Shown: positions 9,285 to 64,000, numbered from the stretch's first letter. The stretch is DNA of 64,000 nt from Amoebophrya sp. A120 (GCA_905178155.1 CAJINV010000004.1:1-64000); one strand, 5' to 3'. The notes: generated from the letters alone by a model not told the origin. Translations and numbers: made by a program.

Positions 9285-12200
9285 ATGTCGGTAAAAATCG
9301 TTGACGTAGACAAGACCGCCTTGGCGCTCACGCCAGAGTAACCAACTGCAATATAAAAATATGTCTGGGTGGTCTGGAAGATTCTTGCCAGATTTGTGAT
9401 ATTTGTCTGGCATGACTCTGAACTCTGAAATGCATAGCCACGAAGGACAAGGAATCGTCTTGCCTGGTGTCATGCAAAAGCGTAGTCTGTCATGCAGAAT
9501 ACGCAACACATATTAGATAGAAGCCTCCTGAAAACTTGTCATGCTTCGGCACGTACTGCAGTGTGCCTACCACTCCCAGACTTGCATTCCAACCTTCCAG
9601 ACCCAGACATATTTGCAATGCATACAGAGGGACGCATTTTCTTCAACCAGTTCCGCCCGGGCGAAAAATTGAAATTTGTCTCCTTCATCGGCGTATCCTG
9701 TGCAAAAGCAACATCGCACCCGTAGTAAGTAATCGCAGTCATGCGTTGCAAATTTATTTCTGAAGTTAAATCCACACTACAAATACAAATTTCATTTCAC
9801 ATGCTGAGGAAATTTGTCATGCGATTTATGCTAGTGCGCTCCTGCTTTTGCATTTCATACGGCGCGGGTCGTGTGGGGAAGAGTTGGCTCGCGTCAAGAT
9901 TTGCGGAACATGTGTGGTAAGTTCGCATGTCAGGATGAAGAAATAAAGAGAGACGCTTCCCCATAAAATTCCTTGCATTTGTCCGTTTTTTGAAGGGTTG
10001 TAATCGTTTTATTTACCAACGACAAATATATGCTGACGCCTAGGTGGTTGCTTCGCTCGATTTTGTTTTTTTTAATATGTGAAAGTGGTTCGGATGCCAA
10101 AAATAAGCCGTTTGATTCTTTCTTAACCCATTGGATGTTGGAAAAAGCAACAGACACCGGGCAACGCTGCGGCAAGAACTCTCTTTGATTCAGTACTGTA
10201 TTTTTCGTACTTGATTTACTAGGTACGATACGGTCCTTTCGGATCGCGAATATGGACCTGTCAGGATTGAAATCGTCAAAGTTGAAATGATTTGTGATGC
10301 ATAAAACGGATACCCGTTTGACCTATAGTTTGTAGTCGGTGCATGACAAATTTTCCCGGTTCTGGAAGCGAGTCTGTCATGCGGCTTAGGGCAAAAGAGC
10401 TGCCTTCTGTCATGCTAGTCAGGAGTCCAACTTTTGACCCTTGCCAGGACTATGCTCTGCCTCCCGTGCGTCCTCTGCAATAGAGTCAGTTTTTGTATCG
10501 CATTTCATGCATGACAAATCATTTCAACTTTGACGATTTCGATCCTGACACTCCCATAGCGAAGAGCGACGAGATATTCCCGTGCCATGGACGGGCGACA
10601 TTTTTTTCACGCGTGGAGAAGGTTATCCCGTGCAAAAGTATCGTACTCGTACTAATTGCAGTTATGCATTACAAATCTTTTTCTCAAGGCCAATCCGCAT
10701 TACAAATTTAATTTGTAATGCTGAGATAATTTGTATTGCAATTTATACTAGTACGATACTTTTGCAGTTCATAAAGGTGAAGCAGTTACCAAAGGTATCT
10801 GGGCGTTCGCGCTGAGACCAAATGACCAGGTAAGTTAGTACAAAAAAATTGAAAATTACCGTGACAAAATAGAATAAGAGTCTTTCCCTCTGTTCTTGCG
10901 CAATTTCTATTCATCATCATCGCTTTCGACTAGGTTTTGGGCCAGGAAGAGGGTTCTTTTGCTCTATCTGAGTGTCTTGAAATCACAATAAAATCTGCAG
11001 GACCCAGATAACGCCACTGATCATGAGAACGGCGGCGCGGAAGATCCTGGCGGCGCGCCGCCGGGTGGCTCCAGTAGAACGACGGACAACGACGACGACC
11101 AAGAAAGCGCAGACAGCAGCGAGACTCGGGGCGCCTCCGCTACCATCGTTATTCTGGATTGCGAAGGATCTGATAACCTGCTGGATTCGCAGCAGGAAAA
11201 CACCATCGCGAAGCAGATCCAGGCCATCTCTTTTTTTCTGGCGGGCCGCGGTTCCGTCGTGTTCGTGGAGACAGACCGCCTGCGGACCCTATCAAGTGTA
11301 AAAATGTCTGGGTCTGGAAGAATCCGAACTTGTGATGCTGCATTTGGATTCCAAAAAAATCTGTATTGCATGAGTACCAAAGGGAATGCAATTTTTGCTA
11401 CGCTGAGAAGGCATTTGTCATGCGGAATAGGCAGCGCGAGGTCCTCAAAAAATCTGTAATGCTAGGGCGTGCATCGCAGACATCATGGCCCAGGCAAAAC
11501 ATGCGTGACAAGTCTCAGAATCTTCCAGACCCAGACACTTTTACGTTTGATAGACCCAGAGCATCGACGATATCCTACGAAAAAAGTGTTGCAGTTACAC
11601 ATTTGTGCCCAAGTCAGCAACACGAAAATTCTCTGCGTCAGGAAGAAAATTTGCAATGCAGAGATCAAAAGGGAAAACGCGGATGAAACAAGAAGGTTCC
11701 TATGCATATCCAGCATGACATACCTTGTCTGTCTTGCTCGGCCTGCAGCACAATGTGTTGTAACTGTAGCACTTTTTTCTTGGCATAGACGACCTGGCCC
11801 GCATATTGGATGTCAAGCTCGAGGATGAAGATCTGTGTATGCAGTAAAAGATTATAATAATCGCACTAGGTGGTAGTTGTGTGAGGAATCAATTGCATTT
11901 ACAACCTTTGAGATGGGGTTTGTCATGCATCGCTGCAAGTAGGTTTAGTGCGATATTAATTCTTTTGCATTGCATACTGTATAGCCTGCAGCAACTTTTC
12001 GTCGTGGTAAACAAGGAAACCCTCGTATCAAGACTAAAAACGTCCCCACTGCCCCCGAGTTGTCATGTAATATGGCGTCCTTGTTAGCATTATTTGTGTT
12101 TCTGATGCGCACCAGCCTCATGAAAAGTATTTTGTATAGTGTTTTGGAATTTGTGATCCTCGAATCAGCATAAAATGTTACCATATTTGTGATGCCGCTG

Positions 12201-15200
12201 CGCAGTTCGCCAAACAGGATTACACTACGGCCTAAAACTTGTCATGCGTATACAACCAAAGCTGGTTGCTTTGCCTACGCCGCTTTAAGTATTGCCATCT
12301 TGACTCTGGGGAGGTGAGTACGTTTTTACAAATGATACCCCGGCAGCTCCTTTGGCTTGGAGCAGCTGCTCGAGAAACAAAAGCGGTATCCTGTGGAAAG
12401 ACGTACAACCCGTCCTCTCCAAAGTTGTCTTTGTCATGCAAATCTGCATACTCTTACTCACCTGCAGTGTCTCTCATCCTCAGCAGGAGCTCCATGGGAG
12501 ACGCTTTATAAGCGAAGTTTTGGCTTTTCGTTTTTGTCTCGCTAGAATCAGGATGCCGCGGGTGCGGCAGCCAAAGCTATTTGTCTTTGTGTAGGAGCAA
12601 ACTTCCCTTCGGGATTTTGGTTTTCAACATATCGACTTTGGGACGTGATGGACGTTTTGGCACAGGATGAGCGGCCCTCTTGCCTGAAGATCGGCCAGGA
12701 GTTCGCAAAGGAGCGAAGAAATTTATGGGATTCTCAAACGTTACACTGGCTCTGTTTGCAGTGACATGGTTCTCCATTTGAAGATTGCATAGGCAAGTAG
12801 ACTAGCAAACCCAAATAAAGCGAAAGGGGTGACAAAGAAGCTTGGTCGTCGTGCCATAGTGATTGCGCGGGACAAGAAGTCATGTAATTGTAAGTACAGC
12901 GACCAATATAAAAACGCTTGCGAATGCCATATTTTTTTTTCCGGATTCCCACATTCTTCGCACGCACTAGCTCCACAAGCACCACTGCGGTACAGGATTG
13001 CGTCACCTACTCGGACCTTACCCTAGAGGACGCGCTAGACCAGCTTTTCTGCTGCATACAAAGGATATCCTCCGCAAAAGCATCGCACTAGTACTAGTAG
13101 GGGCAGATCGCATGACAAGTTTCATACGCACCATAAGTAGAAACAAATGGAATTTGTGATGCGGAGTTAAGTATCTAAAATTAGTGCGATACTTTTGCAC
13201 TTGATAAAGGAAAACGCCGGTGAGCAACCTCGGTGGTATAAACTCGATAAGAGGACCGTACAAATTTTATACCTTAGGTAACAAGCGCTACGATTATAAA
13301 AAGGAACACCTCCGCTGCTCCAGCTTCTACAAATGCCATACACTACGCGTGACATAACGCACGGAGATAATGATGCTCGTAAGAACTACAGGCAAGATCA
13401 AGATGAGCAAAAATATTTCATGAAGTGATACGAATTCGACGCGCACGACGAGTTTGTGAAGATTAACAACGAGCAGGCTCATATCTTAGAAAAAAAAGAA
13501 CTGCTGCATAAAGAAGAAATAGGTGACTTGGGGTGAAAATTCGAATTCCTTATGTGAAGAAAGTAAAAATCGCCGCGGAACACCAGGTCCCGAGTGCGCG
13601 CGAGCCGTCACCGGATATCTTATCCCACGAAAAATAAAAAAGTGTCACAGTTACACATTTGTAGTCAATTCAGCAACACAAATTTCTCTGCATGAGAGAG
13701 AAAGCTTGTAATGCAGAAATCCTACGGGAAAACACCTATGAAACGAGGCTCCTATGCATATCCGGCATGACAGAGCTTTTCCGTCTTGCTTGGCCTGCAT
13801 AGACTATGTGTGTAATTGTAGCACTTTTTTCTTGCGATATATCTGAACATGGACGCACTGGAGGACACGCTCCAGGAACTTCTGGACCTCGTATGATTTG
13901 CGAAAGTATATAAGCGTACTAGTAGAAATTGAAATCGCATGAAAAGTCCCCTCAGCATAAGAAAGGGAATTTGTAATGCGGATTTAGCATGAGAAGGAGA
14001 TTTGTAATGCATGACCGGTAGACGAGGTCCCAGACCGAAGTGGTAGGCGCTTAGGGTGAACTATGTATGTAGCGCTTAGGGCCCTTCCGTACGGCCAATT
14101 TGTATGTCCCGCAACGGGGTTCGCCTAAATCGGTCACTTGTATGCAAGGCGTTGGGTTACCCGGTCGGCAGAGCCGATCCACAACGAACGAACGAACGAT
14201 GACTGCGATTATGATTAAAACGAGTGCGACGATGCTTTTGCAGTCAATACCTCGAACTGGCCGACTACTCCCGGGATTTGCTTTATGGCGTTCTCAAACG
14301 TTACACTCTCAATCGTTACATGAATTTCAATTTGTCATGCAGGACCACTACCACGCTTCTCACAATCAAGCTTCTTCGCATGACAAGTTCTCGACAAGCT
14401 AAATAGCATTGATTACAATCCGTGCCAAATCTGTAATGCAAGACGCGCAAGGTCCCCCCTTTCACTTTTGCTGTTCTCGCATCACAAACTCATGCAACAG
14501 CTGCGAACGCTGTAACGTTTGAGAACGCCATATGCTTCCGATGCTTCTTCGAACAGACGACCAGGAGGACTACGTGGATCATTCGCGGGTATTAAAAACT
14601 AATTACATGCTTATGCTGAAGCATTCTTCACTGATGAAAGTAATTCGTCTACTTCCGCATACTAGTTATAAACATGGAACCAGATCAGCCAGCACTTTTT
14701 TTTTCCCAAACTAGCCGCGAGGTCTACCTCTTTTGGTAGAAGTGCAAACCAGAGCATCTTAAAAATTTGGTAGAACAGAAACAGCAAGAAACAGCAGAGC
14801 AAGAGCTTGTCTTGGTGGAAGTGCAAGAAAAAAAGTGGTTGGACCAGCAGCAAGAGTTTCACAGATGTACAACTAGAGCCGTGTGCTGTTGTTCTGCCGG
14901 TAGTCGTTGAAAACTCGATTACTTACTTATGAAATGTGGAAGTGCTTGATCTTTGCGACTCATCCCACTTCCAGGCCCCGGCTAGTAGCATCGCCTCTAC
15001 TGTTGCCGCTGAGTCAGCTTCTACCTCCTCTACTTCCGCGGGTGAAGCGAGCAAAGCGAAAGCGGCTAGCAGCGGAACCATCGATCCGGTAACGAAGTCA
15101 GACTGGACATGCAAAGTTGACTATCGCAAGAAAAAGTGTTACAGTTGCACATTGTGTTGCAGGCCAAGCAAGACAGACAAGCTCTGTCATGCCGGATATG

Positions 15201-18200
15201 CATGAAGCCTCCTTTCATAGGTATTTTCCCGTAGGATTTCTGCACTTCAAGTTTTCTCTCTCATGCAGAGAAATTTGTGTTGCTGAATTGACAACAAATG
15301 TGTAACTGTAACACTTTTTTCGTTCGATATTGACGAGGAGTTAAGCCTGTCCTTCGACGACCTCTGTCGGTCGTCCGTGGCGGAGCTGACCCAGATCCTG
15401 TTGGACGCGCTTCAGCGGCGGCCGCTCGACCTGCCACATGATATTCTTTGCAAAAGTAGAAAAATCGACGTATTAGTACGTCTACGTGGTATTATTAAAA
15501 ACTATTGCAATTGTACACATTTGCTGCTCAGCATGTAGAAGTTGACAAATGGAACAATATTTCATGCTGATTTAGCTTGGGAGAAAGATGATTTGTCTTG
15601 TATGACTGCGATTCGACGTACGAGCACGAGTGGAAGAATACCTTTTGCATCGAGGATAACTGACCCGGCCCAGCAAGTCGCGTACCTGCAAGCTCAGCAG
15701 CAGAAAGAGCAAACTATGAGGAAACAAGCGCGGGGAGGCGCCGGGGCGTCTTCAAGTAGTAGCACAACATCACTCGGGTCCTCGGATCTGCACAAGTTCG
15801 ACGCTTCCATGCAGGTCTGTGTGACCAAGTTCCAGCGCAAACCCTACGTGCGGTACGCCAACGTCCGGGCGCCCCAGATATGGAAGTGTCAGAATCGAAA
15901 TTGACAAAATCGATGCACAAAATCGATGCCAGTTAGACCTACAGTTTTTTGTGGGCGCATGACAAATTCTCCCCGTCCTGGAAGCGAATCTGCCATGCGG
16001 TTTAGGGCAAAAGAGCTGCCTTCTGTCATGCTAATCAGCAGCCCAACACCGAACCCGTGCCAGGACTACAATCCGCCTTCCTTGCATCCTCTGCACGAGA
16101 GTCGCTTTTTGCGTAGGATTTTATGCATTACAGATCATTTCGATTTTGTTGATTTCGATCCTGACACATCCATACCAGATTGTGGACAATTATTCGAAAA
16201 AGCTGGAAGCCGAGCTGATAGGACAGTGCACAAGAACTCGAACTCCCCCTGCTCCCCCGCATTTTCCATGCAAAATGCAGAGTGGTCCACATCGTGGCTC
16301 GTGCCTTTAGACACTTTGCGCGTGAGTGCCGAATGAACAGGACTGCGCTTTTCCATTTCAGGATTTGTCATGCAAACGCTACATTTGTGGCATTGCTTCT
16401 GTTGCTGCTCATGCTATACAAATGAGGAAGAGGGGGAGTTGTGCACCCTCATAACTGACCGCAATGGTCCTGAAGCAGCGGCACTTCGCGAAGCTCGTAC
16501 TCGTCACGAAAAGGATCCTCGAGTGTCTCGTCGAAATGTTCGTGTTGCAGCTCGAGGCCGACAGTCTGGAGAAGCTGATGGCAGGAGCACCAGGAGGGTC
16601 TACGTCATCTGCGGCTTCGTCCATAGGCGACGAGCAACATGCGGGTCGCGCTAGTACTGCCGCGTCTAACTCGGAGAAAAACGGCAAATCTACGACCAGC
16701 GGAACGTCCACCACGGCGACAGGAACGCTATGAGAGTGCACAAGAACTCTCATCCCTCCCCCTCATTTGTATATGCAAAATCCGAAATCCTATCGTTGTG
16801 TTGTAGCTGTAGCACGGTTTATCGCATGACAAATCTCGGAAGGAGCCCAAAGAACGCTACTACGTTAGGCACATCAACTTGTCTTGCACAGGCTCCATGT
16901 GTTGTTGTTGAGCTGGTGTCTTTATTGCTGTCCATGCGAAACAATTACCAATGAGGGGGAGGGGGACGAGTTGTGCACTCTCATAAACGCCCGAGCTGGA
17001 ACAAGAAGAAAAGGCCGACGTCGCCACGTCGGGCCCTGTTGCAGCAGCAGGAGATCCTGCTGCTCTATCCAGCACTTCTGCTGCATCTACCATAAACAGG
17101 ACCGCTGAAGTAGACACAACATCACCAGCACCAACCGCGGAATTATCGAGCACAGTCAATCACGACCCAGCACCATCATCAATACTGGGGGACAGCGAGC
17201 CTGTGTCTTCGGAGACCACGACCAGCCGAGCAAAAGAAGTAAACCGACTCTCTATCAAAAGGGAAAATCTCCCCTGCCCATACTGCAAAAGTGTATTTGT
17301 GGAAATTTGTGATGCCGATTTGTGGTCACAAATCGCGTCTGTCTTGCAAGAGGGCAACTCCGCAGGCCCCGCGGCATTGTGCAGGTAGTTTCTCATGCTG
17401 TTGGTCCTACAGCGCGGATGTTTTTCATGCTAAGCGCCTAGGCCGCAACCTCTCTACTCGCGCGTAGTATGTGTATGGGCCTTCAGTGCTTTCCAGCAAG
17501 ACAGCTCGGATTTGTGTACACAGATCCAGCATCAGCGATTTCGTTTTGATATGGGGAGGGGGGTTCTTTCGTTTTGATACTCTCATCGGCACAAACAGTG
17601 GCATCGGGCGGCGGCAGCAGCTCCGCCACCGCTAGCAGCACAGGCGGTGGTCGAAAACTGAAGTCTATCAAATGTAAAAATGTCTGGGTCTGGAAGAATG
17701 CAAGTTGTCATGCTCAATCTGAAGCATGCAAAAATCTGTGTTGCATGATTACCAAAAGTCGTCCAGTTTTGGCCAAGTCGGGGGGGAGTTTCTCATGCAG
17801 GATAGGCATGAGAGAGATCGCACAGAATCTGTCATGCTAGGTCCTGCATTCCAGGCTTCATGGGTCATGGAAAAGCTGCATGACAAATCGCGCATTCTTC
17901 CAGACCCAGACACTTTTCCATTTGATAAAGTCGATTACGGGGGAGTCGGTCAAAGTGCGAAGTCTGCTCTCGTATGATAGCCAGATTCTGGACAAGCTGC
18001 TACAGCAGTGGGAACAAAATCCAGTAGTGCTGCAGATTGAAAACGAGGCTTCCACTCTGGAGATACAACAACTAGCGACGACGTTATCTTCTTCCAGCAA
18101 CGTCAAGGCTGTAAACAGAATGAATACTGCAGCGCAAAACAAATACATAAACTCGACGTCTTATCCTGTGCAAATAAAGTATCGCACTCGTAGTAATTGC

Positions 18201-19910: not shown

Positions 19911-20429
19911 AAATCTCGAACAATTTGGTGAAGCCGCTCCACCCGAATAAAGACGTATGTGTTCGAAGTTCTTTCTGTCACCCAAGACGGACAGGCCACG
20001 AAAAAGAAAAACTCCGCCGAGATGAAGTAGATGCGCTGGGACGACGACGCGAAGCCGAAGTCGCTGCTCACTATCCGAAGATCCAGAGGGGAGGTTGCAG
20101 CATCCTTTATCGAGGCCGAAGACACAGTGACACGGAAAGTAAGAACGAAGGCGCTCGCTCGGGCTAGGGCAGCTTGGGACTTAAGTACAACAAAGATTGA
20201 AATTACAGCTACCTACGTAAAAACAAATAAAGAACGTTGCGAACAAGGCAAGCAAATTTTAATTTTCTTATACTTCAACTTCTTATTATTTCTCGAGACA
20301 GATCATGGAAACTACAAACTGCGACCCTACTCAACAATATTTTCAATAAGGGCACCAGCACAGTGATATGGCACGCGCGATGGTGATGTCACCGGCAGAT
20401 GAGCTTGAGCATAGAGACAAAGCATAGCA

Positions 20430-20658
20430 CGATTCGAAAACCGCTTCTTTCATAGAAAACTTTTTTGTAGGGCCAGCAAGAGGAGCCCAGTTTGTGCTCT
20501 GCGGAGAGGGCATTTCTCATGCGTAATAGGCATCAGTGAGCCCCCTAAATATCTGCAATGCTAGCTCATGCATTTGCATTACAGACATCATGGGTCATGC
20601 AAAAAGTGCATGACAAGCCTGGCAATCTTCCAGACCCAGACATATTTGCAGTTGATAT
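20430..20658. mobile_element. Family A remnant outside coding sequence (left TIR eroded)
   Basis: Right TIR CTTCCAGACCCAGACATATTTGCAGTTGATA is present; left boundary not found. Confidence 0.6.
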
Positions 20659-51956: not shown

Positions 51957-52827
51957 CGATGAAGATGAAGAAACCTGCTGATCATGAGCGTAGATTAGAT
52001 ATCACGTCTATATGTCGAGTGTTTTTTTCTGATGATAAACAAAGTCGCCTATATTACACAAAAAAACCGGTGGATCCTCAACATGGAATATGTTCTGCTC
52101 GTTCGCGAATTATGTGTTTCAAGTTCTTTCTTTCGCGAATGTGTTTCAAGTTCTTCCGTGGATAGATCTGTCTATAAATGTGTTTAAAAAAGTTCCGCAC
52201 CTCCTGCAGGGAATGGGAAGCTGCAAAGCTGGCTTCTTATAACTTGCTGCCGTCCACGCGGCCGCGGCCATTCATGCCTCCTTTTCTTGCCGGTATTAAT
52301 TCATCAGCATTTTAAGAATGAAGAGTTTTTAAGATTTTTGCGGCAGTAGAAGTGTACTCAGAATCATTTCAAATCATTTCAAACAGGAACCGCCTATTAT
52401 TTTCTGGTCCTCGTAGTGCTTGGCGAGAAAAAAAACTAGAACTCTATGAAGTTTTTTCGACACCGTGGCCGTCCTCGTGATTTCGCTGCAGCTCCAGCTC
52501 GTGTACCTGTCTACAAAAGTTGTTTTTTTGCAAGACAAAGAACTTTTTTTCCCACGGCCGTCGTGAGCATCTATTCGCTCTTCCTCTGCGTCACCGAGTT
52601 CGTTTCCGAGATACATTCTGGCGCGTTATGCATTGCATACATTCTGACCGCGTCTGGAAGTAGACCAAGAAAAGTGCAGATGTCTACTCGTCCTATCCAG
52701 CTCTTTGTGGACGATCTGCAATATTATTCTGTGTCGTGTCTGCAATGTAGGTACCGCATGGCATGATAAGTTTTGCTCGGGAGGTTAAGTACTTGTTCTC
52801 CTTCTTCATGCCTAACCTGCACGAGGA

Positions 52828-55800
52828 ATGATCGTGCCCTCTTTGATGGGACGAGAGAAGCACTGCGCCTCTGCTCTTGCTGACTATGCAAAAAATCACT
52901 TTTTTGTCATGTTGTACTGCAGAATCAGAATCACAACAAGTTTCCATCCTCCCACATCACTGCTCTACCGAGTTGTCATGTTTGCAATGCATGCGCGTCA
53001 CCGCAGCGCAAATCTTCGACGACGAACACAATTGGGAAGGTCTCAGGCATGTTCCGGGAACGTTCCGAAATGAGTCCCGGGGCAAGTTTCCGAGCAATGA
53101 GCCTCCGGGGGAGGTAGGTTGGTCCGGAACAAGGCCCGGGGCAGGCTCCTGCGCAGGCGTCCCGCGAGCAAGGTGCTCCTCGGGGGATATTTGCGGAAAT
53201 AGCTAGCCCCGCCGAGGGGGCCACGAGGGTGGTCCGGGCCCTGTCTTTGTCGGCGAGAGTGCTTCGCATCGTCGAACCGAAGTGCCGACCTTCGGCACCG
53301 CCAGCCGCCGACGTGCTCTTTGATGGGAGCGTCGCTGTGGTTTGATCCGGTTCGGGGGCCTCGCAACCCTAAAACGGCCAGAGGGCCACCCCGGGGGTTT
53401 TTGGGTTTCTGAAGGAGGGCAGGCTGCGAGGTGTCACGGCATCGGAGGTCGTCTGGGTGTTGGCTCGGCGCAGCCTGCCAGGCCTGCCCCCCTCTCGGCG
53501 CCCGGCGTGGATGGGCCGGCCCCCGTCGTCGGGCGGGCCCGCCGAGGATTATCTTGTTGTCATCGCGCGCGCCCCCGAAACGCTTTGTTTTATCGCATTC
53601 CAGCAAACGAAGCCGCATGCCATCGTGTAACGCGCGTTACACGATGGCGCTCTCCCTTCATCCTGTCTCCTGCTGCGCTGGTGTGGCATGCTCCCGGCCG
53701 TAGACGCGCTGTCTCGCCACAGGGCGACACTCGCTCTCGCGCCCCCCCTCCGGTGCAACACCTCAAAGAAAGGCCTCCCTTCTTGTCGTGCCCACAGCCG
53801 CGAGCACGGACGGGGGCTCGGCTGTGGGGGAAGTATGCTGCATCGTGCTCATCTTCGGTTGATGTGCAAGCGTGTTGCCGTAGCGTTTGGCCGTCGTTTA
53901 GGTGGTTCATCTTGGTGGGCTGCTGTCTCGCACCAACGTGCAGCCGGCATCCACTTGAGCAGTATAGACCGGCGGAAGGTTGGGCCCTCGTTGCCTGGAA
54001 CCCCGGTGCCCTCTTGTATTGCCCCAACCGGAAACCGGCCCGACAAGTTCTGCGCAAGTTCTGGGCAAGTTCGGCACCCCATACATCTAGACCCATGCTT
54101 TCGGAGTAACACATCACTGTTCTACTGATGCATGTTTGCAATGCATGCGCGTCACCGCAGCGCAAATCTTCGACGACGAACACAATTGGGAAGAACCAGC
54201 ACCCACCGTCCAGAAAGCAGCACGACAGGGAGGCAAGAAATTATGGTCAGAGCAGCGCAGGAGATCATGCACCTCCAGCAGCCGAATCTGAAGGAACAAC
54301 GCTGTCAGGAAGATCCTCCTCCTCGGCCTCAAAAACTACAGGGGCGCTACAAGACCGGGACAAATCAAATTCAGACTCCCCACGAAGAAGTAGAAATGCT
54401 GACTCGGCTTCCGCCACAGCACACGTTGTATCTCCGACCGAACATCAAGATCAAGAAGCGGAAGATGCGACGCGGGTGCAGCTTGAAACTCAAGAACAAG
54501 AGCGCGATGTTGATCAAGCGTATCCTGCTGATGTGCAAAAGTTGTATCGTTCATCTTTACTCGGTCTGTCCACTGCGATCTTGCATAACGCACGTGAATT
54601 TGATTTTACCTCAAACCGCACGAGGAAGTTCATTTGGCCTTTACAGAAATAAAACTGTCGTGGCTGATACTAGTCCCAGTAGTCGTGCTTCACATAATTA
54701 CCCATATTTTTCGTTGTTTTGGTTTTCGTTTTCCTTTTGCAATGCATAAAGCGACGTCTTCATCTTCTGTACCAATTGGAGTTGAATCTGCTCCAAGTAT
54801 CTCAGCAGCAGCAAGCGGTGCGACGCGGTTGCAGGCGGACCGCAAGAAGGACGTCCAGAGACGAGGAACATCAAGATCACACCCTGCTAGTACTTCTTCA
54901 TCAACATCGAGGGCCGCCAATCAACGGCAGGAGCCACCGCGTAGAAAGCCGCGCGAAGTTGTATTGAAGAACGCCGATCCTCCTGATGGCAGTGGCACCA
55001 CCAGGACCTCCAGGAGAATTAGAAACGACGGCCGTCATCAACAGCAGAATCAGCATGAACAAGATGCTCCTGCTCCCGCACGAGGACCTCCACCGCCACC
55101 AGACAACATTGTCCATCTCACAGAAGGACGAGAACAGAAGAAAGAACCTCCAGTCGACACCGTCGACGTCTTATCAAATGCAAAAATGTCTGGGTCTGGA
55201 AACTTGTGATGCTGCGTGGCGTAATATCATGAGGGGATCACAAGTGCTGGCTCAGCATGACAAGTTTCTGAGCTTCTAGGTGTTGCCTATTCTGCGTGAC
55301 AAACTGCGCTTCTGCATGACAGAAAAGTGGCGCGCTTGGGTAACGTGCATGACAGATTTGGGAGTCATGCCAGACAAGCATGACAAACATGCACTCTTCC
55401 AGACCCAGACATTTTTACATTTGATACGTCTTTTCCGATGGTGAAGAAATGGTTCTCACGACAGGAGACAACGCGGAGCTCCTTGCCCAAGCTGGAGATC
55501 ATGCGCTCTCGTCAAGCGGAGGTCCTCCCGCAGGTAGTGGCGCGACGGCGCGTCTGCAAGAGGATATTAGAAATATTGACAGGCCGAGCAGGACGGGTGG
55601 CGGAACAGGAAAAATAAATGCACTTCCCACCCGAAAGCATGGCTACCAGGAGCAACATGGTAGTACTTCGGGTGGGAACAAAAGAACGAAACAGTCAACA
55701 TCTCCTGGGTGGTCGTCCCCAGAGGCAGAAGAAGATGTTGTACCAAAAAGACACTATCTGAGTCCACCTCGAGAGGATCATGTTGACAGTGATGCCGCGG

Positions 55801-58800
55801 GGAGGGCCTCTCCGGATGAAAAACATCAACAACGAGGAGCAAACGAGGAAATTATGGACGACCCCTTGTCATCTTCTTTCGTCGAACTGCAGAAACAAAG
55901 GACGGCTGGTTATCAAACGGAGCTCCAAAAAGCACAAGCCCGCGAAGCAGCCTGGCAGGCGCAACTCGCTGCTGCTCACGGCATGACTACCTGTAAGCAT
56001 TTCACGTGTTACGGCACGGGCCAGCCGCAGCATACAACAACCGCGATAAAGTCCCGCTTTTACTCCAGCGTTGTGGCCTCCGGCACGCCCGCACAGGCGG
56101 GGTCCGCAGCGCAGCAGGTGCTGAAACCGGCCGCCAGCTATTTACAGTAAATTTCCTGTACACGACGTACAAATGCGGTCTCTGCATGGCAAATCTAGGC
56201 TTCGATCCTAGTTTAGCATGACAAGTTTCACAGTCCAAATCGGGGAAATTTGTGATGCATCTTGTACATGTACGGGAAATTTGTATTGCATACCAGCCGG
56301 GAGCAATACGCCTGGCGGTTGGACACGGAGGACGAATGCAACGGCAGCGAGACCTATGACCCTGCACAACTCCCCCTCCCCCTCATTTGTCATGCAAAAT
56401 GCCCGTATTTACTCTTTGCCTCTTGGCACTGTTTGCAGGACAAGTTTTGGTAGCCCAAATAGCACGACTATAATCCAGCGCAAATTTCCGATGCAAAACC
56501 AGCATTCTTGCTGATGCTTGTATTGCCGGTCAACATGCTATACAAATGAGGGGGAGGGGGAGTTGTGCGCTGTTATAAGTCCGGACAGTACTTCAAAAAA
56601 ATCGGGTGCCAGGACGTGTGTTGCAACATGGTCTACTGCATTGCGGACGACGAATGGAAGGTGTGGCCGTTTCAGAAATTTCCAAACCTCCGCACCGCCC
56701 AGGCCGCAGTGGTGCAGGAAAAGGGTAAGGCCACGTATTTCCAATCCCCCAATGCGCTGAAGCACCACGTCGTGCGGGCGCCCAATTGCGTTGGCCCCGC
56801 GGACCACGTGGGCCGGAAGGTGTACGCGCGGGTCTCCGAGTGCCACCGGTACGTGGGCTTCTTTCACCGCGACTACCGGCACAAAAAGAAGCCCGAAGCG
56901 CGGACCTACCGCTTCTTTCCCTACCTGGCGCACCTGAAGCAGTCCACGCCAGTGGTCTGGAATGCGATTGACCCCGCGAATCTGGTGGCGGGGACCGCGG
57001 AGCAGGGCTCCTTCTTCCGGCTGGTCACTTCGGAGACCGAAGACGGTCCGGCCATCGTGCAGTGGGCGAGCGAGCACCAGGAGCAGCTGCTGGCCGCGCA
57101 GCGGTACATGGAGGGCCAGATGAAAAAAGCCGCGGACGTCGGTAGCAATATTACGTACACCAAGCAAGACACGTCGATGGAAAGCCTGATCCGCGCCCGG
57201 AAGCCTTTCTTCCAGGCGCGCGAGTACCTGCAGGTCCCGGTGGGCGGGAACCCCTTTGTGCCCATCGGCTACTGCTGTCAACACGTGGTATCAGCCTGGA
57301 CAAGTCCCCGTCCCCGTCTTCCCTCCTCTTCTTGACGACATAAACGCCAGGAGCCGCGGAGGTGCTGGCAGTATTAATATTTGGGGCTCGCGCCGCCGTG
57401 TTGGCACAACGGCGCGGGGATCTGCGCATAACAATAGAAAAGCAGTACTGCTACTGCAGCAACTAGAAACAGTTCGAAGAGGCTTGGCCGAAGAGCTGGA
57501 GCGTGCTTTCTTTGGGGCTGACTGTTCCCGGAAGGGCAGCCGACGCACTAACGCCGCGCGATGATGGCAAACAGCTTGATGGCAACAAAGTACAAAAACA
57601 AAAAGGAAGAGCACGCGTAGCCAGGAACATAAAATGAATAAGAAAAGGCGGCCAGCAGAGCGACCGGCCCACCAACTGCAGCCCAACGCCTAGCGCGCCA
57701 GATCCGTCCGGCCTCTGTAGTGCCAAAAGCCGGGTCAGGTAGAGGTCGATAAGGGCACGCGCTTCCGCTTGGTGCGCCTCACCGTAGTTGTGCCGTCTGC
57801 CTTCTAGGAAATGGAAAGCAGACCCGCGCCGGGCGGCCTCCCCTCCTTCTACTTCAGCTACCCAGCAAGCGCAGGCAGCTAGGGCGAGAACGCCAGCGAG
57901 CCTTTGCGGCCCGCAAGTGCGTTTTTGTTTTTAGGTGCGGCTCCTGGCCGTCGCGTTGGTACTCGTCGTAGCAGGTGGCCGCCCGGCGTGGAAAGAAAAC
58001 GCTACAACCTGCCGAAGGCACCTGCGCCGCTGCACGGACGTAACCTCTGCGGCGGCTCACATCTGTTGCCTTCGCATCAGCCTGCCGCTGTGCGCCGAAA
58101 GTTTCTCTTGCGTATGGTCTTGGGCTTGTTGTGTGCATGCTTTTCCATCCGGGCTGCCCTTCGGCGAGGCTACTTGGCCCGATACCCTGTAGCAAGCAGC
58201 AGGACCACGCAGCTGCTGGCGGTTGCCTCCCAACAAATCTAAGTAAGAGGCACGCCTGCCAGTGCTGTTTATGTTTTTGAGTTTTACTCTCGGCACCGGC
58301 GGCCACGCCTCACAGCATGGAGGCAACAGCCATGCGGCTGGTTGTTTCTGATGAATTAGCCCCAGCCCCACCGCGTTTGGTTCGTTGCTTCTGTGCTCCC
58401 GGTGTTGGGCTTCCTAGGCAAGCACCAGGGGCAACAGGAACAGACCGGCCGGGTAGCTGCAGCTGATTAGTGTGAGAAACGATAAAAAAGCCTTTTGGCT
58501 GTCGAGCTGTAGGTGCTCGCTATAGGCGGAAGCTGTAGAGCTTAGGCTCTAGAACATCACCAAACAGCTGTAGAGATTCAGCTCTAGCGATTGAGCTCTA
58601 CAGGTTTTTGAGCTCTAGAGGCGTTCGCCCTAATCGTTATCAATCTTTTTTCGCAGGAGCGTGGTGATTCACCAAGGAAAATTAGGAAAAAAAAGGACAT
58701 CTCTAGAGATTTGATCCTTCTTGGCCCAGGTTTGAGCCTAGTCTGCACCACAGTAGCATGCAGATTTCAGAAATAAAGCAAGTAGCCTTCTTTGAGCCTT

Positions 58801-61800
58801 GTTCGGTTCCAGGTTTGGCTCTAGTTGCTGCAAGTACTATAGTTCTCTTGGCTACTTCTAAATTGTTTATAAGGAGGAGGTGCATCATGAAGTGTTGCTG
58901 TTTTTATTCAATACTGCTTTCTGGGTACTACTACTAGCAGCTTTCGCAGTTATCTGTTTCTGCATGACAGTGACACTGACAGCCACAACTGGTACTGGTA
59001 CTGGAGTTCTTGCTGTTTTGCATGAGAAATGAGAACATCAACATGATGGAAGTAGTAGATTTCTGCAGGCTGATACGTGGCGCAGTGGATGTACGATTGG
59101 AACTTCAAGTTTCACGACCCCGCGGCCAGACAGCACGAGCAGCATCCGGTGCAGTATGGCGTTCTCGAGCGTTACATTCTCAACTGTTACATGAATCAGT
59201 CATGCAAAAGTGCCTTCATCCGGCAGATGATCGAGCGGCTTCGCATGACAAATTTCGGAAGGGCCAAACAGTACCTAAATTTGCGCCAAACTTGTAATGC
59301 AAGAGGCGCAATCTTCCTCCTGTCACTTTTGCCAGTCTTGCATTGCAAATTCATGTAACACCAGTTGAGAATGAATGTAACGCTTGAGCACTCCATATGC
59401 AGAGCTGCGTGGTGTTCTCGGAAGCCATGGACCGCGGCGGAAAGGACCGCGTCAAGCGCCGGGGCCCCGACCCCCATGACGACTGGGAAAAGCGGGTGGG
59501 GAGCATCGACGACCCGCCCAACATGGTACCGCCGATCTACACGACCGCAGAGCCCTTACCGCCGATGCCGACCACGGCCCATCCGACCACCCGGGAGCCG
59601 CCAGCCACAACGTCAACGAAATTCCCCCCGCCAACAACGGGGGCCCCGCCCGGCCCAATAACACCGCCCGGCCCCGGTACATCAACAACCACGATCGTGG
59701 TACCGCCCGAGCCCTTACCTCCAGGGTAAGGCCTTCTCAAGCGTTACATTCTCTTCAACTGTTACATCAGCTTGCAATGCAAGCATAGCAATAAAACTGA
59801 AAGGAGGAGGATTGATGCGCCTTTTGCATATACAAATTCCGCCCAGATTTAGGTGCTGTCTAGCCCTTCGCAGATTTGTCATGCGAAGCAGCTTGACCAT
59901 CTGGCGGCTCAAGGTGTTTTTGCATGACAAACCATGTAGCAGTTTGTTGAGGATGTAACGTTTGAGAACCCCATACCCGGCCACCGGTTCCGACCACTCC
60001 CACCCCCACGACCACCTCTCCCGGCACCGACCTCACGCCCGACGCGATTCACATCCTTGCCAGCAGCGAAGATAAGTTGGAAGGTCCGGATGCGGATGTC
60101 GTGGTCAAAGACGACCTGCCCGACGTGGATGAGGCGGCCACGGAGCACGAGTGGTTGTTTCGGACCTTCGAGGAGAAGTGTCCCTGGCTGCAGATCGATC
60201 TCGGGCAGACCCGGCGCGTCCAGAGTGTGCGGCTGCTGGTCTCCTCGAGCCGGGCCCACATGCGGCGGCTTTTTTTCGTGACGACGGTGGCCTCCAGCGA
60301 GCCGTATGGGGCGGCGAACACCCCCGAGATGACCTCAAACGCGGACGACGAACTCCGGGGCACGCGGACGTGGGACACCACGGATTTGCTGGATTTCGGG
60401 GTGCAGGTGCTGGTCACCAAGAACAGCAGGCACCACCACGCGCGGTGCGACGCGACCGGCGGCATATGAACTGCAAAAGTATCGTACTAGTATAAATCGC
60501 ATGACAAATTTCCCCAGCATGAGTGATAAAATTTGTAATGCGGATTTAACTTGACAAAGAAATTTGTAATGCGTGACTGCCATTACCACGAGTACGATAC
60601 TTTTGCACTGGATACGGCAGCCCCCAACCCAACTCCGGCGGGCGGCCGTGCGTGTTCCCGGGCCAGACCTGCCCCCCGGTGCGGCCCGGCGAGGTGTGCG
60701 AGACGGTCCTGTTCGCCGACCAGTGGGACAAAGATGCGAACAAGAGGCTGATCTTTCGCCCCGGACAGGAGATCCCGACGACGTTTTGGATTGACTGCAA
60801 AAACACGGTCCCCGGGCGGTACGTCGTCGTGCAGCTCCCGGGCGTGCGCAGCGTGGCGTCCGAAACGCGGCGGGTGCTGTTCCTGGCGCGCGTTCGGATT
60901 TTCGGCCGGCACCTGGAGGACGGGGAGTATTGAGAGGAAAAATCCCCCCTCCCCATATTGAAAAGGTTATGTCTCCGTCGAAAATTTGTGTTGCTAGTTT
61001 GAGGCCACGAATCACATTTTTCTTGCAAGACGACGACAAGGGCGGAAGCTTCCGTCCCATTATGATAAAGCGACTTGTCATGCTGTTGGGCTTAAACAAG
61101 GTCAGCCGTTGCCGTTTGCAATGCTCAACAACTAGACCCATACGCCCCTACCTAGCCTGGGGATCTGGCCGCAGTTGTGCCTTCCTGCAATACAAAGCTG
61201 ATTTGTCAGCGTCAGAATGATATGGGGAGGGGGGATAATTTTTCCTTTCGATAGGGAGGACGCGGACTTCACGTCGATGACCACGACCCAGTTGGAAATG
61301 TCACCGGATGGCTCCGTGCGGAACGGCGAGCAAAACTTTTTGAAGGACGGGCGGCCGCTGGACACGCTGTTCCGCACGGACTACCTGCAGTGCCCCACAC
61401 TGACGTTTCAGTTCGCGCAGGAAGTGCAGGTGAGCAGCGTGTATCTCTCCGCCGAGAAGGACCATGCGCACCTCCGGAACCTGTTTCTCCCGAACCCGCA
61501 GCGGGGTTTTCTGGATGCCAACGGGAACGTATCAAAGTGCACAACTCCCCCTCGTCCCCCTCATTTGTCATGCAAAATGCCTAATTTACGCCTTGGCTCT
61601 TGGCAATGATGTTTGCATGGCAAGTTCTAGCGCCCCAAATAGCACTACAATCCTGCCCAAATTTGTCATGCAAAACCGGCAAAAATCTTGCTGACGCTTG
61701 TATTGCTGTTCATGCAATACAAATGAGGGGGCGGCGGGGGAGTTGTGCACTTTCCTAGAACGAGGCTGCGGAAATCAAGGACCGGTTGCTGGAGCAGTGG

Positions 61801-64000
61801 GCGCACGCTCCCTACGGGGCGCAAGTGAGCCCGGAGAAAAGGCTATCCTGAGTAAAAACGTACCCACACCAGAGTTGTAATGCAGATTTGCAAAGACAGG
61901 AAGACTTGTAATGCGCATCCCCATGAGAGCCATTTCCAATCGTGTTTTGGAATTTGTGATGCTGTGAACAGGATGAGCAGACGAATCTGTGACGCGGCTG
62001 CACTTGCTAACCTGCACTACACTGCAGAGTGCAACCTGTCATGCGTGACTCACAAAACTCGTAGCTTTGTGTTGCAAAATCCCCAGCCTGGCTCTGGTGT
62101 GGGTACGTTTTTACTCAGGATAAAGGCTGGGCGTTGCCGGCAACGCGAACCAGGACCGCGGCGTCCGCGTGTTGGTGTCCCGCGAGGCGCCCACTCCGGC
62201 TAGCACCTGCAAGCAGGACGACCCCGACCTGGACAGCGGCACCGTTGAGGTGTGCGAAAACCTCAGGTACGGCCTCCAGGGAGAGGGCCCCTACCGATTT
62301 GCGAAACTAGCCGAGGTGCCGGTCGCGCAGACCTTGCCGCCGGGGTTTGCCGACGGGGGCGCGGCGGGCGCGGTAGATACCACCGGGCACTACCAAAAGT
62401 ACGAGGTGGTGGGAACCGGGTGGTGCAGCTGCGGAGGCGACCCGTGCGAGGATACCTATGAAACGAGTGCACTACGACTCCCGCTCCCCCTCAATTGTAT
62501 GCCACAAACAGCAACACAAGCGTCGGCACGAGTTCCGGTTTTGCGCGACAAGTTCACCCACATTTGTAGTTTTGTTTTTTATTGAGCTGCCGGAACTTGC
62601 CCTGCAATTGCAAAAAGTGTCAAGGAAGAGGCAAGCGTCAAGTCGGAGGTCGAGTTGTGCACTCTTATAATGCCCCGGCGTCCCCGACAAACGGCGACTA
62701 CATCGCGGGCAACGCGGATCGCGCGCAAGACTACTGCCAAAGATTCTGCGACGAGGACCGGGGATGTCAGGCCTACATGCAACAGCGTGACATGCAACAG
62801 CGTGACATGCTTCCAGGAAACTGCCGCTTGTTCGGGTACGAGGACTACGAGGTAGACGGCGTCTATCCAGGAAAAAGCACCCATCCCCATCCAATTTGTC
62901 ACGCAAAACATGCATAAGGTCGACTGTTTGTCATGCAAAAAATGGATGGGGATCATGGGTGTTTTTCCCTGGATAGCGTCGTCAGCATCATCACGCGGGG
63001 AGGCCTTGGCTACGGGGTCGGAAAAATTCCTGCCGGGTGGCGGTCCGGGGTCCCGTGCATGAAAAAGACGGGACACGCAGCGACCTCGGGGAAGCCGATC
63101 TACACAAATCAGGGCGACGCCTGGTGCAAGTGCAACTTGAAAAACCACAACCTGAACAAGAACGGGGCCGCAGGAGGCGTCCGCGTCAGTGCGACAAACC
63201 TCCCCTGCCCGGTACAAGGGTCCGAGGAGCAGTATGCATTGCAAATATAGTATCGCTCTCGTATAAATGCGAGTGCAGCTGCATCATGAGCATTACAGAT
63301 CTGCTCTCTTACCTATACCTGTGAATCTACATGACAACTTCCATCTTTCTTAAAGGAAAGATTTGTCATGCAATTCATTCCACTGCGATATCATATATTT
63401 GCAATTCATAAGCAAGACGGGAAATTGATTTTCTCCAGCTATGACAAAGGTCCCGACTGGTGCAAGACCCTGTGTGACAAGGACAAGGACTGTCGTGCCT
63501 ACCAGCAGTCTATGGTGAACGCCGAAACGGCCGCTAACTGCAGGCTCTTCAACGCAGACGATGTCGATGGCGGCATCAACGCTGCCGACGATCTATCAAA
63601 TGTAAAAATGTCTGGGTCTGGAAGATTCTGACACTTGTCATGCACCTTCTGCATGAGCCGTGATGTCTGTGATGCATGCCCTAGCATCACAGATTTTTTG
63701 AGAGCTTCTTGATGCCTATTCCGCATGACAAATGCCCTTTCCGCGTAGCAAAAATTGCATTCTCTTTGGTACTCATGCAATACAGATTTGTTTGGAATCC
63801 AAATGCAGCATCACAAATTGCATTCTTCCAGACCCAGACATTTTTACATTTGATACGATCCGGAGTTGTACAACGATCTGAGCGAGGTGCAGAAGATATC
63901 GAAGGGAAAAATCCCCCCTCCCCATATCAAAACGAAATTTCTGATGCTGGATCTGTGTGCACAAATCAGCTTTGTATTGCAGGAGGGCACTGCGGCCAGA
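52828..64000 (+). CDS. Large Cys-rich adhesin-like protein: Pro/Thr linker, F5/8-type (discoidin/galactose-binding-like) and PAN/apple-like modules; runs off the window; start uncertain
   Basis: In-frame joins checked at 54521, 55172, 56139, 56355, 57289 and 59155. Motifs: PWLQIDLGQTRRVQSVRL, GRYVVVQL, CQRFCDEDRGCQAY..CRL, CKTLCDKDKDCRAY..CRL. Confidence 0.65.
53040..54109. mobile_element. ~1.07-kb GC-rich insertion flanked by an ~85-bp duplication
   Basis: 52953-53039 matches 54110-54193; the last 63 bp are exact. Confidence 0.75.
54521..54748. mobile_element. Introner family C, degenerate
   Basis: DR AAGCG; frame restored. Confidence 0.75.
55172..55426. mobile_element. Introner family A
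   Basis: DR CGTCT. Confidence 0.92.
56139..56292. mobile_element. Introner family J (TIR TA..AAATTTCCYGTACA)
   Basis: DR CCAGC; frame restored. Confidence 0.82.
56355..56577. mobile_element. Introner family G
   Basis: DR AGACC/AGTCC. Confidence 0.85.
57289..59075. mobile_element. Large (1787 bp) TA..TA non-canonical intron, type K
   Basis: TIR TATCAGCCTG..CAGGCTGATA, DR CGTGG; removal gives in-frame YCCQHV-AQWMYDW. Confidence 0.8.
59155..59397. mobile_element. Introner family F
   Basis: DR TGCAG. Confidence 0.9.
59727..59975. mobile_element. Introner family F (reverse orientation)
   Basis: TIRs clear; DR degenerate (CAGGG/CCCGG). Confidence 0.78.
60465..60614. mobile_element. Introner family C
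   Basis: DR CGGCA. Confidence 0.9.
60928..61253. mobile_element. Introner family H
   Basis: DR GGGAG. Confidence 0.9.
61530..61757. mobile_element. Introner family G
   Basis: DR GAACG. Confidence 0.9.
61844..62122. mobile_element. Introner family E (reverse of 39460)
   Basis: DR AAGGC. Confidence 0.92.
62457..62669. mobile_element. Introner family G, degenerate
   Basis: DR ATACC/ATGCC. Confidence 0.75.
62864..62975. mobile_element. Introner family I
   Basis: DR GCGTC. Confidence 0.9.
63233..63410. mobile_element. Introner family C
   Basis: DR AGCAG/AGCAA. Confidence 0.78.
63594..63855. mobile_element. Introner family A (reverse of 11290)
   Basis: DR CGATC. Confidence 0.92.
63897..64000. 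mobile_element. Introner family H, truncated by the window end
   Basis: Left TIR TATCGAAGGGAAAAATCCCCCCTCCCCATAT. Confidence 0.8.

What the first reader, a model, noticed from the sequence alone, without database searches (positions are those of the whole stretch)
9339..64000. One excision grammar (5-bp DR | TA..TIR..TIR..TA | 5-bp DR) shared by at least 10 unrelated intron families
Seen: about 75 elements of 108-1787 bp. Almost all begin TA(T), end (A)TA and carry a 5-bp DR, with no GT-AG at the element ends. Removing the element plus one DR rebuilds conserved motifs that the elements split or flank (GAGRVGKS, TKGIW). Ordinary GT-AG introns coexist in the same gene (9917-10222, 10830-11000). 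Known: Amoebophrya genomes were reported to have IR/DR-bearing non-canonical introners whose splicing mechanism is unresolved. Inference: a single structure-guided removal system serves all the families.
Basis: partly seen in the sequence, partly recalled or inferred. Interest (0 to 1): 0.85.

Follow-up and report, generated by a model that had tools for sequence, protein, structure and literature searches.

The report
Transposon introns cut by a ruler
Seventy-six small hairpin-ended inserts interrupt the genes here and, where RNA could be checked, drop out with exactly five extra bases, a known oddity likely of the plankton parasite Amoebophrya; inserts with damaged flanks show that the cut falls inside the flanking repeat, likely measured from the hairpin ends.

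Summary
Observation confirmed. The window holds 76 elements (108-1787 bp). All start TA, 71 end TA and 56 have a perfect 5-bp repeat. RNA-like contigs from one sample skip element+5 at 12 of 12 elements in one stretch, on the same contigs as two GT-AG introns; DNA contigs keep them. The class is published: Amoebophrya A120-type introner elements (Farhat 2021: TAT-N7-AAA ends, 3-5-nt repeats; Gozashti 2025 supplement: 5-bp TSD, TA/TA termini). The scan also noted similar introns on other genomes. Two corrections. The families are probably related: they share the end consensus and an internal TTGT[ACG]ATGC motif, so the shared ends most simply reflect one transposase. The repeat is a target-site duplication, not a splice signal. 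Not found in print: eight elements whose two repeat copies differ place the RNA cut inside the repeat, after base 3 or 4, not at the TA ends. The +5 register holds with up to 3 of 5 mismatches. GT-AG is at chance level (14 of 379 sense, 13 antisense) and both orientations are removed. This suggests a ruler-type cut, as in Euglena nonconventional introns. The enzyme is unknown.

The parts
9339..19888 (+). 26 elements in gene 1 (P-loop GTPase-like by recalled motifs; not confirmed by Pfam on one exon): 9339-9624, 9694-9859, 10251-10558, 10624-10773, 11290-11552, 11571-11787, 11838-11976, 12026-12337, 12387-12669, 12724-12931, 13066-13206, 13621-13839, 13892-14249, 14284-14532, 15122-15329, 15442-15658, 15879-16174, 16219-16453, 16729-16985, 17253-17579, 17666-17927, 18162-18315, 18445-18766, 18919-19096, 19338-19635, 19738-19888
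   Evidence: RNA joints for 12 and 1; the others by contig-length arithmetic, piece ends or loose ends; Pfam
11833..11981 (+). Element 11838-11976, repeat CTGTG/CTGTA: RNA keeps base 5 of the right copy (cut after base 4 or earlier)
   Evidence: joint 11832->11977 in 4 of 4 runs
12021..12342 (+). Element 12026-12337, repeat CCTCG/CCCCG: RNA keeps base 3 of the left copy (cut after base 3 or later)
   Evidence: joint 12023->12341 in 3 of 4 runs
12719..12936 (+). Element 12724-12931, repeat AAATT/TTTTT (3 mismatches): RNA keeps bases 1-3 of the left copy; still removed as +5
   Evidence: joint 12721->12935 in 4 of 4 runs
15437..15663 (+). Element 15442-15658, repeat CATGA/ACTGA: RNA keeps bases 1-2 of the left copy
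   Evidence: joint 15438->15661
16214..16458 (+). Element 16219-16453, repeat GCTGA/ACTGA: RNA keeps base 1 of the left copy
   Evidence: joint 16214->16455
18440..18771 (+). Element 18445-18766, repeat CACCT/CACCA: weakest end pairing of the 76; a retained form is present in two RNA-like runs; the spliced form is inferred to keep base 5 of the right copy
   Evidence: contig 18414-18796 at depth 7.5 and 5.6, spliced contig ending at 18443 by arithmetic; duplex energy; indirect
19333..19640 (+). Element 19338-19635, repeat GTCTG/CTCTT: RNA keeps base 1 left and base 5 right
   Evidence: piece end 19333 and a 96-nt gap in X2 record 10; indirect
27617..27800 (+). Element 27622-27795, repeat AAACA/AAGCA: RNA keeps base 3 of the left copy
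   Evidence: piece end 27619 in one X1 contig of depth 3.7; indirect
9917..10222 (+). GT-AG intron
   Evidence: 257-nt arithmetic
10830..11000 (+). GT-AG intron
13236..13586 (+). GT-AG intron on the same RNA contigs as the elements
14589..14974 (+). GT-AG intron on the same RNA contigs as the elements
21126..35689 (+). 29 elements in gene 2: 21126-21636, 21678-21827, 21881-22201, 22244-22392, 22413-22590, 22655-22975, 23011-23346 (repeat unclear), 23396-23552, 24284-24485, 24547-24807, 24849-25105, 25157-25265, 25333-25610, 25895-26002, 26244-26599, 27622-27795, 27983-28244, 28389-28627, 28706-28914, 29243-29395 (TCCAG/TCTGC, would separate base 3 from base 4), 31231-31463, 31547-31876, 33132-33330, 33414-33700, 34001-34298, 34376-34513, 34617-34879, 34979-35380, 35427-35689
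   Evidence: frame restoration; RNA evidence only for 27622
39460..42145 (+). 6 elements: 39460-39738, 39823-40082, 40586-40778, 41405-41556, 41627-41780, 41838-42145
   Evidence: no RNA laid
52627..63855 (+). 15 elements: 52627-52993, 55172-55426, 56139-56292, 56355-56577, 57289-59075 (1787 bp, no Pfam hit in the two ORFs tried), 59155-59397, 59727-59975, 60465-60614, 60928-61253, 61530-61757, 61844-62122, 62457-62669, 62864-62975, 63233-63410, 63594-63855; a further element starts at 63897 and runs off the window
   Evidence: no RNA laid

Best explanation
The elements are short hairpin-ended inserts, likely non-autonomous DNA transposons moved by one transposase with a 5-base staggered cut, that are removed from the RNA together with exactly five flanking bases, with the cut inside the duplicated target after base 3 or 4, likely set by distance from the paired TAT/ATA ends rather than by sequence. 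Shown: constant 5-bp duplication, shared ends, removal of element+5 in RNA-like contigs, the position of the cut in eight damaged repeats (five by direct joints, three indirectly), no GT/AG signal. Inferred: one transposase; a ruler that cuts 2 nt before and 3 nt after the stem (or 1 and 4); because 2+3 equals the 5-bp duplication, a new insertion in any exon and either orientation would leave the mRNA unchanged. Best guess for the catalyst (about 45%): an endonuclease-ligase type system separate from the GT-AG spliceosome, as proposed for Euglena; next (about 35%) a U1-less, relaxed spliceosome.
For: RNA: 14 joints in 11770-16520, 12 elements each skipping length+5 and 2 GT-AG introns, on the same contigs; depth 0 in all four runs in bins wholly inside elements 12724, 14284 and 16219. 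DNA-type run X5 keeps 11524-13665 unbroken. Cut position: base 5 from the right copy in 11838, 19338, 18445; base 3 from the left copy in 12026, 12724, 27622; bases 1-2 from the left in 15442, 16219. A random cut per element would agree on one register with probability 0.045. In 7 of these 8 a longer repeat existed at another nearby position, yet the skip was +5. Second assembly, 665 kb, scan blind to the repeat: 316 of 423 exact 5-bp repeats against 3, 0, 1, 2 for 4, 6, 7, 8 bp; end consensus TAT-S-NNN-TG-N-AAAA. 379 sense-oriented perfect repeats have background composition; GT-AG in any register 14 sense, 13 antisense; GN-AG 37 and 31. Families lie in both orientations; 13621 and 15122 are opposite-orientation copies and both are removed. 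In RNA polymerase II Rpb1 of the second assembly, +5 scored best of 13 lengths at 6 of 6 alignable elements, of 9 tried. Internal motif: 125 hits in 19.7 kb of elements, 2 in 44.3 kb outside; present in all 12 families.
Against: All RNA evidence is assembled contigs of one sample, labelled 'RNA?', without strand or raw reads. Six of the eight damaged-repeat outcomes are also what a crossover in the longest intact block of the repeat would give; only the two single base-3 cases and the register test separate the models. No base-4 case was covered, so 3 versus 4 is open. Structure dependence is mixed: the weakest-paired element (18445) shows a retained form, but the second weakest (15442) does not, and 19338 is removed without a predicted end stem. 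End positions 4-7 pair in only 45-73% of 488 elements. No transposase with these ends was found. 49 of 76 elements have no RNA evidence here.
Confidence: 0.75

Rival explanations
1. The cut is made by the ordinary U2/U5/U6 spliceosome, relaxed after loss of U1; the hairpin only brings the ends together and U5-exon contacts set the register.
For: Farhat 2021 reports nearly all spliceosomal proteins and U2, U4, U5, U6 in A120, with U1 undetected (passages). GT-AG introns are spliced on the same transcripts. A fixed register is compatible with it.
Against: No base preference at either intron end in any register, and removal in both orientations, while the same cell keeps strict GT-AG at other introns (4 of 4 here). 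Other dinoflagellate introners recruit G(T/C/A) and AG from the duplication (passages); these do not.
Confidence: 0.35
2. Homology-guided removal: the machinery crosses over within whatever block of the repeat is still identical, so the cut has no fixed position.
For: Six of eight damaged-repeat junctions fall in the longest intact block at the +5 register.
Against: +5 is kept with only 2-3 matching bases (12026, 27622, 12724, 15442, 19338), although longer repeats lie at the stem base in other registers for 11838 (+3), 12026 (+6), 12724 (+2), 15442 (-2). Both single base-3 cases resolve the same way.
Confidence: 0.15
3. Reverse-transcriptase template switching across hairpins flanked by short repeats produces false introns; the elements stay in the mRNA.
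For: A hairpin with short repeats at its base is the known substrate of this artefact (PMC2923612 passages); all data here are probably cDNA-derived.
Against: Element+5 lengths fall evenly in the three frames (179/146/164) and 61 of 76 window elements have stops in all three sense frames, so retention would destroy genes such as Rpb1. Twelve successive elements are skipped on single contigs, with zero depth inside several. The longest repeat is not the one used.
Confidence: 0.04
4. The elements are cut out of DNA in the transcribed nuclei, like TA-bounded ciliate IES.
For: TA at both ends; precise removal.
Against: DNA-type contigs keep elements and GT-AG introns together (11524-13665). The joined form keeps five target bases and no TA. 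Joined forms occur on contigs that also lack GT-AG introns. Caveat: 3569 lower-ranked joints were not shown.
Confidence: 0.02

Closest known systems
Introner elements among the non-canonical introns of Amoebophrya A120 (Farhat et al. 2021, PMC7789003; sections 11-12, passages and supplement legends read)
   Same: Inverted repeats that start TAT, then seven variable bases, then at least three A; direct repeats at the borders (5 bp in the legend of Fig. S19); repeated families; coexistence with GT-AG introns; typical length near 240 nt.
   Different: The paper gives 3-5-nt repeats, calls the splice position variable or unknown, and doubts a general transposase origin. Here the repeat is almost always 5 bp when measured from TAT/ATA, the cut maps inside it, and the families share an internal motif.
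A120 introner families of Gozashti et al. 2025 (PMC12130899; passages and 41 of 58 A120 rows of supplementary file 8)
   Same: Mostly classed as TIR DNA elements of 105-320 bp; family 38 is annotated '5-bp TSD, TA/TA Termini'.
   Different: Their automated calls give TSDs of 2-6 bp and 'co-opt' or 'carry' splice sites; here GT/AG is at chance level in every register.
Euglena nonconventional introns (PMC12501133, passages; PMC11282704, passages)
   Same: Paired ends, no GT-AG, direct repeats that blur the borders, cut set by spacer length from a paired motif with the longer spacer on the 3' side, proposed MITE origin, coexistence with spliceosomal introns.
   Different: Motif CDG/CH'G with spacers 3 and 5-6 and a purine starting the next exon; here TAT/ATA with spacers 2+3 or 1+4 and no purine bias (0.58 or 0.53 against 0.55). 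Distant lineage.
Spliceosomal introners of Polarella, Symbiodinium, Micromonas, Aureococcus (bioRxiv 2020.10.14.339549, PMC9860276; passages)
   Same: TIR and TSD, seamless removal, many families.
   Different: They carry or recruit G(T/C/A) and AG; these elements do neither.
hAT5 and Ginger-like DNA transposons
   Same: hAT5 makes 5-bp TSDs (PMC12730594 passage). YA..TR ends and repeated subterminal binding motifs are hAT traits (recalled). Gozashti labels A120 family 38 as Ginger.
   Different: No transposase linked to these ends was found, so the superfamily is undetermined.

Membership tests
Amoebophrya A120-type introner elements | Non-canonical intron supported by RNA junctions | tested here: met
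   12 of 12 elements skipped; one more direct joint
Amoebophrya A120-type introner elements | Terminal inverted repeat starting TAT + 7 variable + at least 3 A | tested here: met
   consensus (TAT was required by that scan; A at positions 11-13 is 85-94%); TA found without being asked for
Amoebophrya A120-type introner elements | 3-5-nt direct repeat at the borders | tested here: met
   5 bp in 316 of 423 and 56 of 76 in the window
Amoebophrya A120-type introner elements | Repeated families | tested here: met
   12 families of 4-220 members among 565 elements
Amoebophrya A120-type introner elements | Host is Amoebophrya | tested here: inconclusive
   No window protein gave a named relative. 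Rpb1 from the second assembly with the same families has dinoflagellates and apicomplexans as nearest named hits. The genus is inferred from the match to the published motif.
Non-autonomous TIR DNA transposon (MITE-like) | TIRs, constant-length TSD of free sequence, many copies, both orientations, no coding capacity | tested here: met
Non-autonomous TIR DNA transposon (MITE-like) | Autonomous partner with the same ends | tested here: inconclusive
   none in the window or in 71 long ORFs of the loci; whole genome not held
Non-autonomous TIR DNA transposon (MITE-like) | Empty allele with a single target copy in another strain | not testable with these tools
   no locus overlapped the window's genes
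hAT5 | 5-bp TSD | tested here: met
   definition from PMC12730594
hAT5 | hAT transposase | tested here: inconclusive
   no transposase found
U2-type spliceosomal introners | G(T/C/A) donor and AG acceptor carried or recruited from the TSD | tested here: not met
   GT-AG 14 of 379 sense against 13 antisense; GN-AG 37 against 31
Euglenid nonconventional introns | Base-paired ends with fixed, unequal spacers | tested here: met
   25 of 27 fold end to end; register from 8 damaged repeats
Euglenid nonconventional introns | CDG/CH'G motif, spacers 3 and 5-6, purine at exon start | tested here: not met
Euglenid nonconventional introns | Excised as circles, not lariats | not testable with these tools
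   contigs only
Ciliate-type IES | Excised from DNA, leaving one TA | tested here: not met
   DNA-type contigs retain the elements; the joined form keeps five target bases

The most novel reading that the evidence does not exclude
An alveolate has a second, non-spliceosomal RNA excision machine that ignores junction sequence and cuts at a fixed distance from a TAT/ATA-closed stem (2 nt upstream and 3 nt downstream, or 1 and 4). The sum equals the 5-bp stagger of one transposase, so every insertion of that clan, in either orientation and at any exonic site, is scarless at once. It would be a second, independent origin of the Euglena-type splicing code.
Probability: 0.4. Interest if true: 0.8.

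Novelty: already known. Interest (0 to 1): 0.5.

Why it matters
The elements are known, but the paper that described them left the splice position unknown because the direct repeat hides it. Elements with a mutated repeat remove that ambiguity, and about a fifth of elements have one (98 of 489 in the second assembly), so existing RNA-seq can map the cut genome-wide. A fixed, sequence-blind register limits which enzyme can be responsible. It explains why one transposon clan could fill exons without needing GT or AG at the target. It gives gene finders a simple rule (remove element+5) for a genome in which over 60% of introns are non-canonical, and it links this system to the Euglena code.

Tried and rejected
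Whole-genome scan: no genome held; replaced by 142 loci of a second public assembly found with one family's end pattern, so that sample is enriched for that family (220 of 565). No RNA holder is on record as RNA; the one raw-read RNA run laid (X8) gave 32 partial element matches and no junction. A G at repeat base 4 looked enriched in the window but is 0.34 among 379, within the 0.27-0.39 range of flanking positions: dropped. Telling the exonic copy of damaged repeats by codon likelihood had no power even at positions known from RNA. Substitution direction was noise. Flanking exons of 57 amino-acid-changing cases were listed and 71 of the 99 exon references were scanned; only one base-4 case touched a Pfam domain and it did not decide. 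Covariation between the two ends (z 4-7 in four families, none in five) is confounded by subfamilies and by selecting for complementarity: not used. The integrase ORF at 2-4183 as autonomous partner: no matching end nearby, no relative in the loci, only a pol-type homolog: not supported. The frame control cannot separate +2, +5 and +8. Roy et al. 2023 (Curr Biol) is not held; its preprint was read in passages instead.


Full report
Observation. A scan for any 5-bp direct repeat around complementary ends, with no TA requirement, gave 55 hits in the window, 42 TA..TA and 3 TA..TG; three shuffles gave 1, 0 and 1. Relaxed scans and inspection (four ends corrected) gave 76 elements of 108-1787 bp covering 19.7 kb. 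All begin TA, 71 end TA and 5 end TG. The repeat is perfect in 56, has one mismatch in 13 and more in 7. They sit in plus-strand reading frames. None was found in 1-9300 or 42400-52600 or inside the four GT-AG introns. Removing element+5 opens a frame of 2524 codons against at most 689 for out-of-frame lengths.

A larger sample. No genome is held. One family's end pattern found 146 stretches (142 loci), all from one public assembly (JACKZZ01), 665 kb after merging. None overlaps the window's genes, and I could not tell whether it is the same strain. A scan that ignored the repeat found 423 TAT..ATA elements: 316 have an exact 5-bp repeat, 376 at most one mismatch, and exact repeats of 4, 6, 7 and 8 bp number 3, 0, 1 and 2. 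A repeat-aware scan gave 489 elements, 0 in two shuffles of the window; element+5 lengths fall 179/146/164 in the three frames. Rpb1 from these loci has dinoflagellates and apicomplexans as nearest named relatives, and removal of element+5 scored best of 13 lengths at 6 of 6 alignable elements, of 9 tried.

RNA. The run search listed four contig sets guessed to be RNA (one sample), three of unknown kind, and three raw RNA runs with the same species label. On 11770-16520 the four RNA-like runs gave 14 joints: 12 elements, each skipping its length plus 5, and two GT-AG introns, on the same contigs; 13 joints in 4 of 4 runs, one in 3 of 4. On 9001-29000 one more joint is direct (16723 to 16986), and contig arithmetic fits removal of further elements, for example 257 expected and 257 observed bases between 9333 and 10998. 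Run X5 keeps 11524-13665 unbroken, GT-AG intron included, so it is DNA and the DNA holds the elements. Raw-read run X8 gave nothing usable.

Where the cut lies. With a perfect repeat the junction can slide over six positions. With a damaged repeat the RNA shows which copy each base came from. Five direct joints: 11838 keeps base 5 of the right copy; 12026 base 3 of the left; 12724 bases 1-3 of the left; 15442 bases 1-2 of the left; 16219 base 1 of the left. Three indirect cases: 19338 keeps base 1 left and base 5 right; 27622 base 3 left (one contig, depth 3.7); 18445 base 5 right, from where the spliced and retained contigs branch. All eight fit a cut after base 3 or 4; neither TA end fits. 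A random cut per element would agree on one register in 4.5% of trials, so the evidence is real but modest. Against my reading: six of the eight outcomes are also expected if the crossover simply falls in the longest intact block. For it: in 7 of 8 a longer repeat lay at another nearby position, four of them at the stem base, and the skip was still +5. No base-4 mismatch was covered.

No splice-site sequence. Of 565 elements, 488 could be oriented by a codon model (67 of 69 window calls on the plus strand). The 379 perfect repeats among them match coding background at all five positions. GT-AG in any register occurs 14 times on the sense strand and 13 on the antisense; GN-AG 37 and 31. Mismatches are spread evenly over the five positions (22/16/17/14/16). 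Families lie in both orientations, and an opposite-orientation pair (13621, 15122) is removed in both cases.

Related, not unrelated. Clustering gives 12 families of four or more members, 10 multi-member families with window members, and 19 window singletons. All share the end consensus TAT-S-NNN-TG-N-AAAA and an internal motif TTGT[ACG]ATGC, with 125 hits in 19.7 kb of window elements and 2 in 44.3 kb outside, present in 75-100% of members of every family. Constant duplication length, shared ends and a repeated internal motif in both orientations point to one transposase (inference). No such enzyme was found. hAT5 (5-bp TSD) and a Ginger-like integrase (label) are leads only. Copies are at most 97.7% identical in the loci, so the sample shows no very recent jump.

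Structure. 25 of 27 RNA-supported elements are predicted to pair their terminal 30-mers by 16-29 bp; 18445 and 19338 are not. 18445 has the weakest end duplex of the 76 and is the only element whose full retained form was among the listed pieces (depth 7.5 and 5.6 against 15-37 for the gene's spliced contigs, tables truncated). But 15442, the second weakest, shows no retention, and 19338 is removed. Insertions inside the stem 10-20 nt from the end (9339, 13621, 18919) and variant ends (TAA, TAG, ATG) do not shift the register.

Mechanism. Shown: insertion with a 5-bp duplication; removal at RNA level of element+5; cut inside the duplication. Inferred: a ruler working from the paired TAT/ATA ends, offsets 2+3 or 1+4, whose sum equals the duplication, so that any insertion is seamless. 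The catalyst is untested. Sequence-blind ends in both orientations, beside strict GT-AG introns in the same transcript, favour a separate endonuclease-ligase type system (about 45%) over a relaxed U1-less spliceosome (about 35%). A reverse-transcriptase artefact and DNA excision are unlikely for the reasons given under rivals.

What is known. Farhat 2021 (PMC7789003; abstract, passages, sections 11-12, supplement legends; figures not seen) describes A120 inverted repeats as TAT, seven variable bases and at least three A, with 3-5-nt direct repeats and a 5-bp example, and says the border position is variable or unknown. Gozashti 2025 (PMC12130899; passages, 41 of 58 A120 rows of file 8) lists most families as TIR DNA elements and family 38 as '5-bp TSD, TA/TA Termini'. 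Two reviews and a later genome paper add no mechanism (passages). The Euglena code is N3-CDG..CH'G-N5-6 then a purine, with spacer length tested by knock-in (PMC12501133 passages). Other dinoflagellate and algal introners recruit G(T/C/A) and AG (passages). Four full-text searches returned no paper that places the Amoebophrya cut, uses damaged repeats, or reports the shared internal motif; subscription papers are not covered, and Roy 2023 was seen only as preprint passages. The scan's own notes list similar introns on three other windows (unchecked).

Verdict. The feature is real and belongs to a published class, so novelty is 'already known'. The fixed cut inside the duplication, the dispensability of a matching repeat and the common descent of the families are additions that make the open splicing question testable with existing data. 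Interest 0.5.

Noticed in passing
window 2-4183 (+): Intronless ORF of more than 1393 aa with an integrase H2C2 domain and a faint Macro domain (E 0.047); the only homolog is a reverse transcriptase-RNase H-integrase protein. Followed by four intronless ORFs up to 8479. Likely a retroelement; free of the TAT..ATA elements.
   Followed up: partly
window 34570-35787: Tandem duplication of about 400 nt (99% identical) that copies element 34617-34879 as 35427-35689, with element 34979-35380 at the seam; the frame stays open. Could be a transposition by-product or an assembly effect.
   Followed up: partly
window 35800-37751: A 1.85-kb insert between two 46-nt repeats, followed by a third copy of a 56-nt exon piece; it interrupts what may be one gene continuing to 42340.
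   Followed up: no
window 52627-54193: 367-bp element followed by a 63-nt duplication of its right end and the next exon around a 1.1-kb insert that begins AG|GT and ends AG; either one long removal or element plus GT-AG intron would give the same exon.
   Followed up: partly
window 20448-20657: Element with an intact right end and a decayed left end, downstream of the stop codon of gene 1; an RNA-like contig runs into it unspliced. Suggests that ends are maintained only inside coding sequence.
   Followed up: partly
window 43445-44330 and 48527-51956: Other repeats: an 886-bp stretch 81% identical to L063 with a 13-bp tandem array, and four copies of a 79-nt unit at 1.0-1.3-kb spacing.
   Followed up: no
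L054 10792-11763: 972-bp element with the ends of the commonest 262-bp family inside Rpb1; a longer member, with no second pair of ends found inside.
   Followed up: partly
window 54750-64000 (+): Host gene of more than 1500 codons with weak F5/8-type and PAN domain hits, possibly a surface or adhesion protein.
   Followed up: no
run X8 on window 17666, 24557, 27983: A newer RNA run with the same species label holds unspliced copies of the commonest family at 90-95% identity with foreign flanks, so another isolate carries a diverged version.
   Followed up: no
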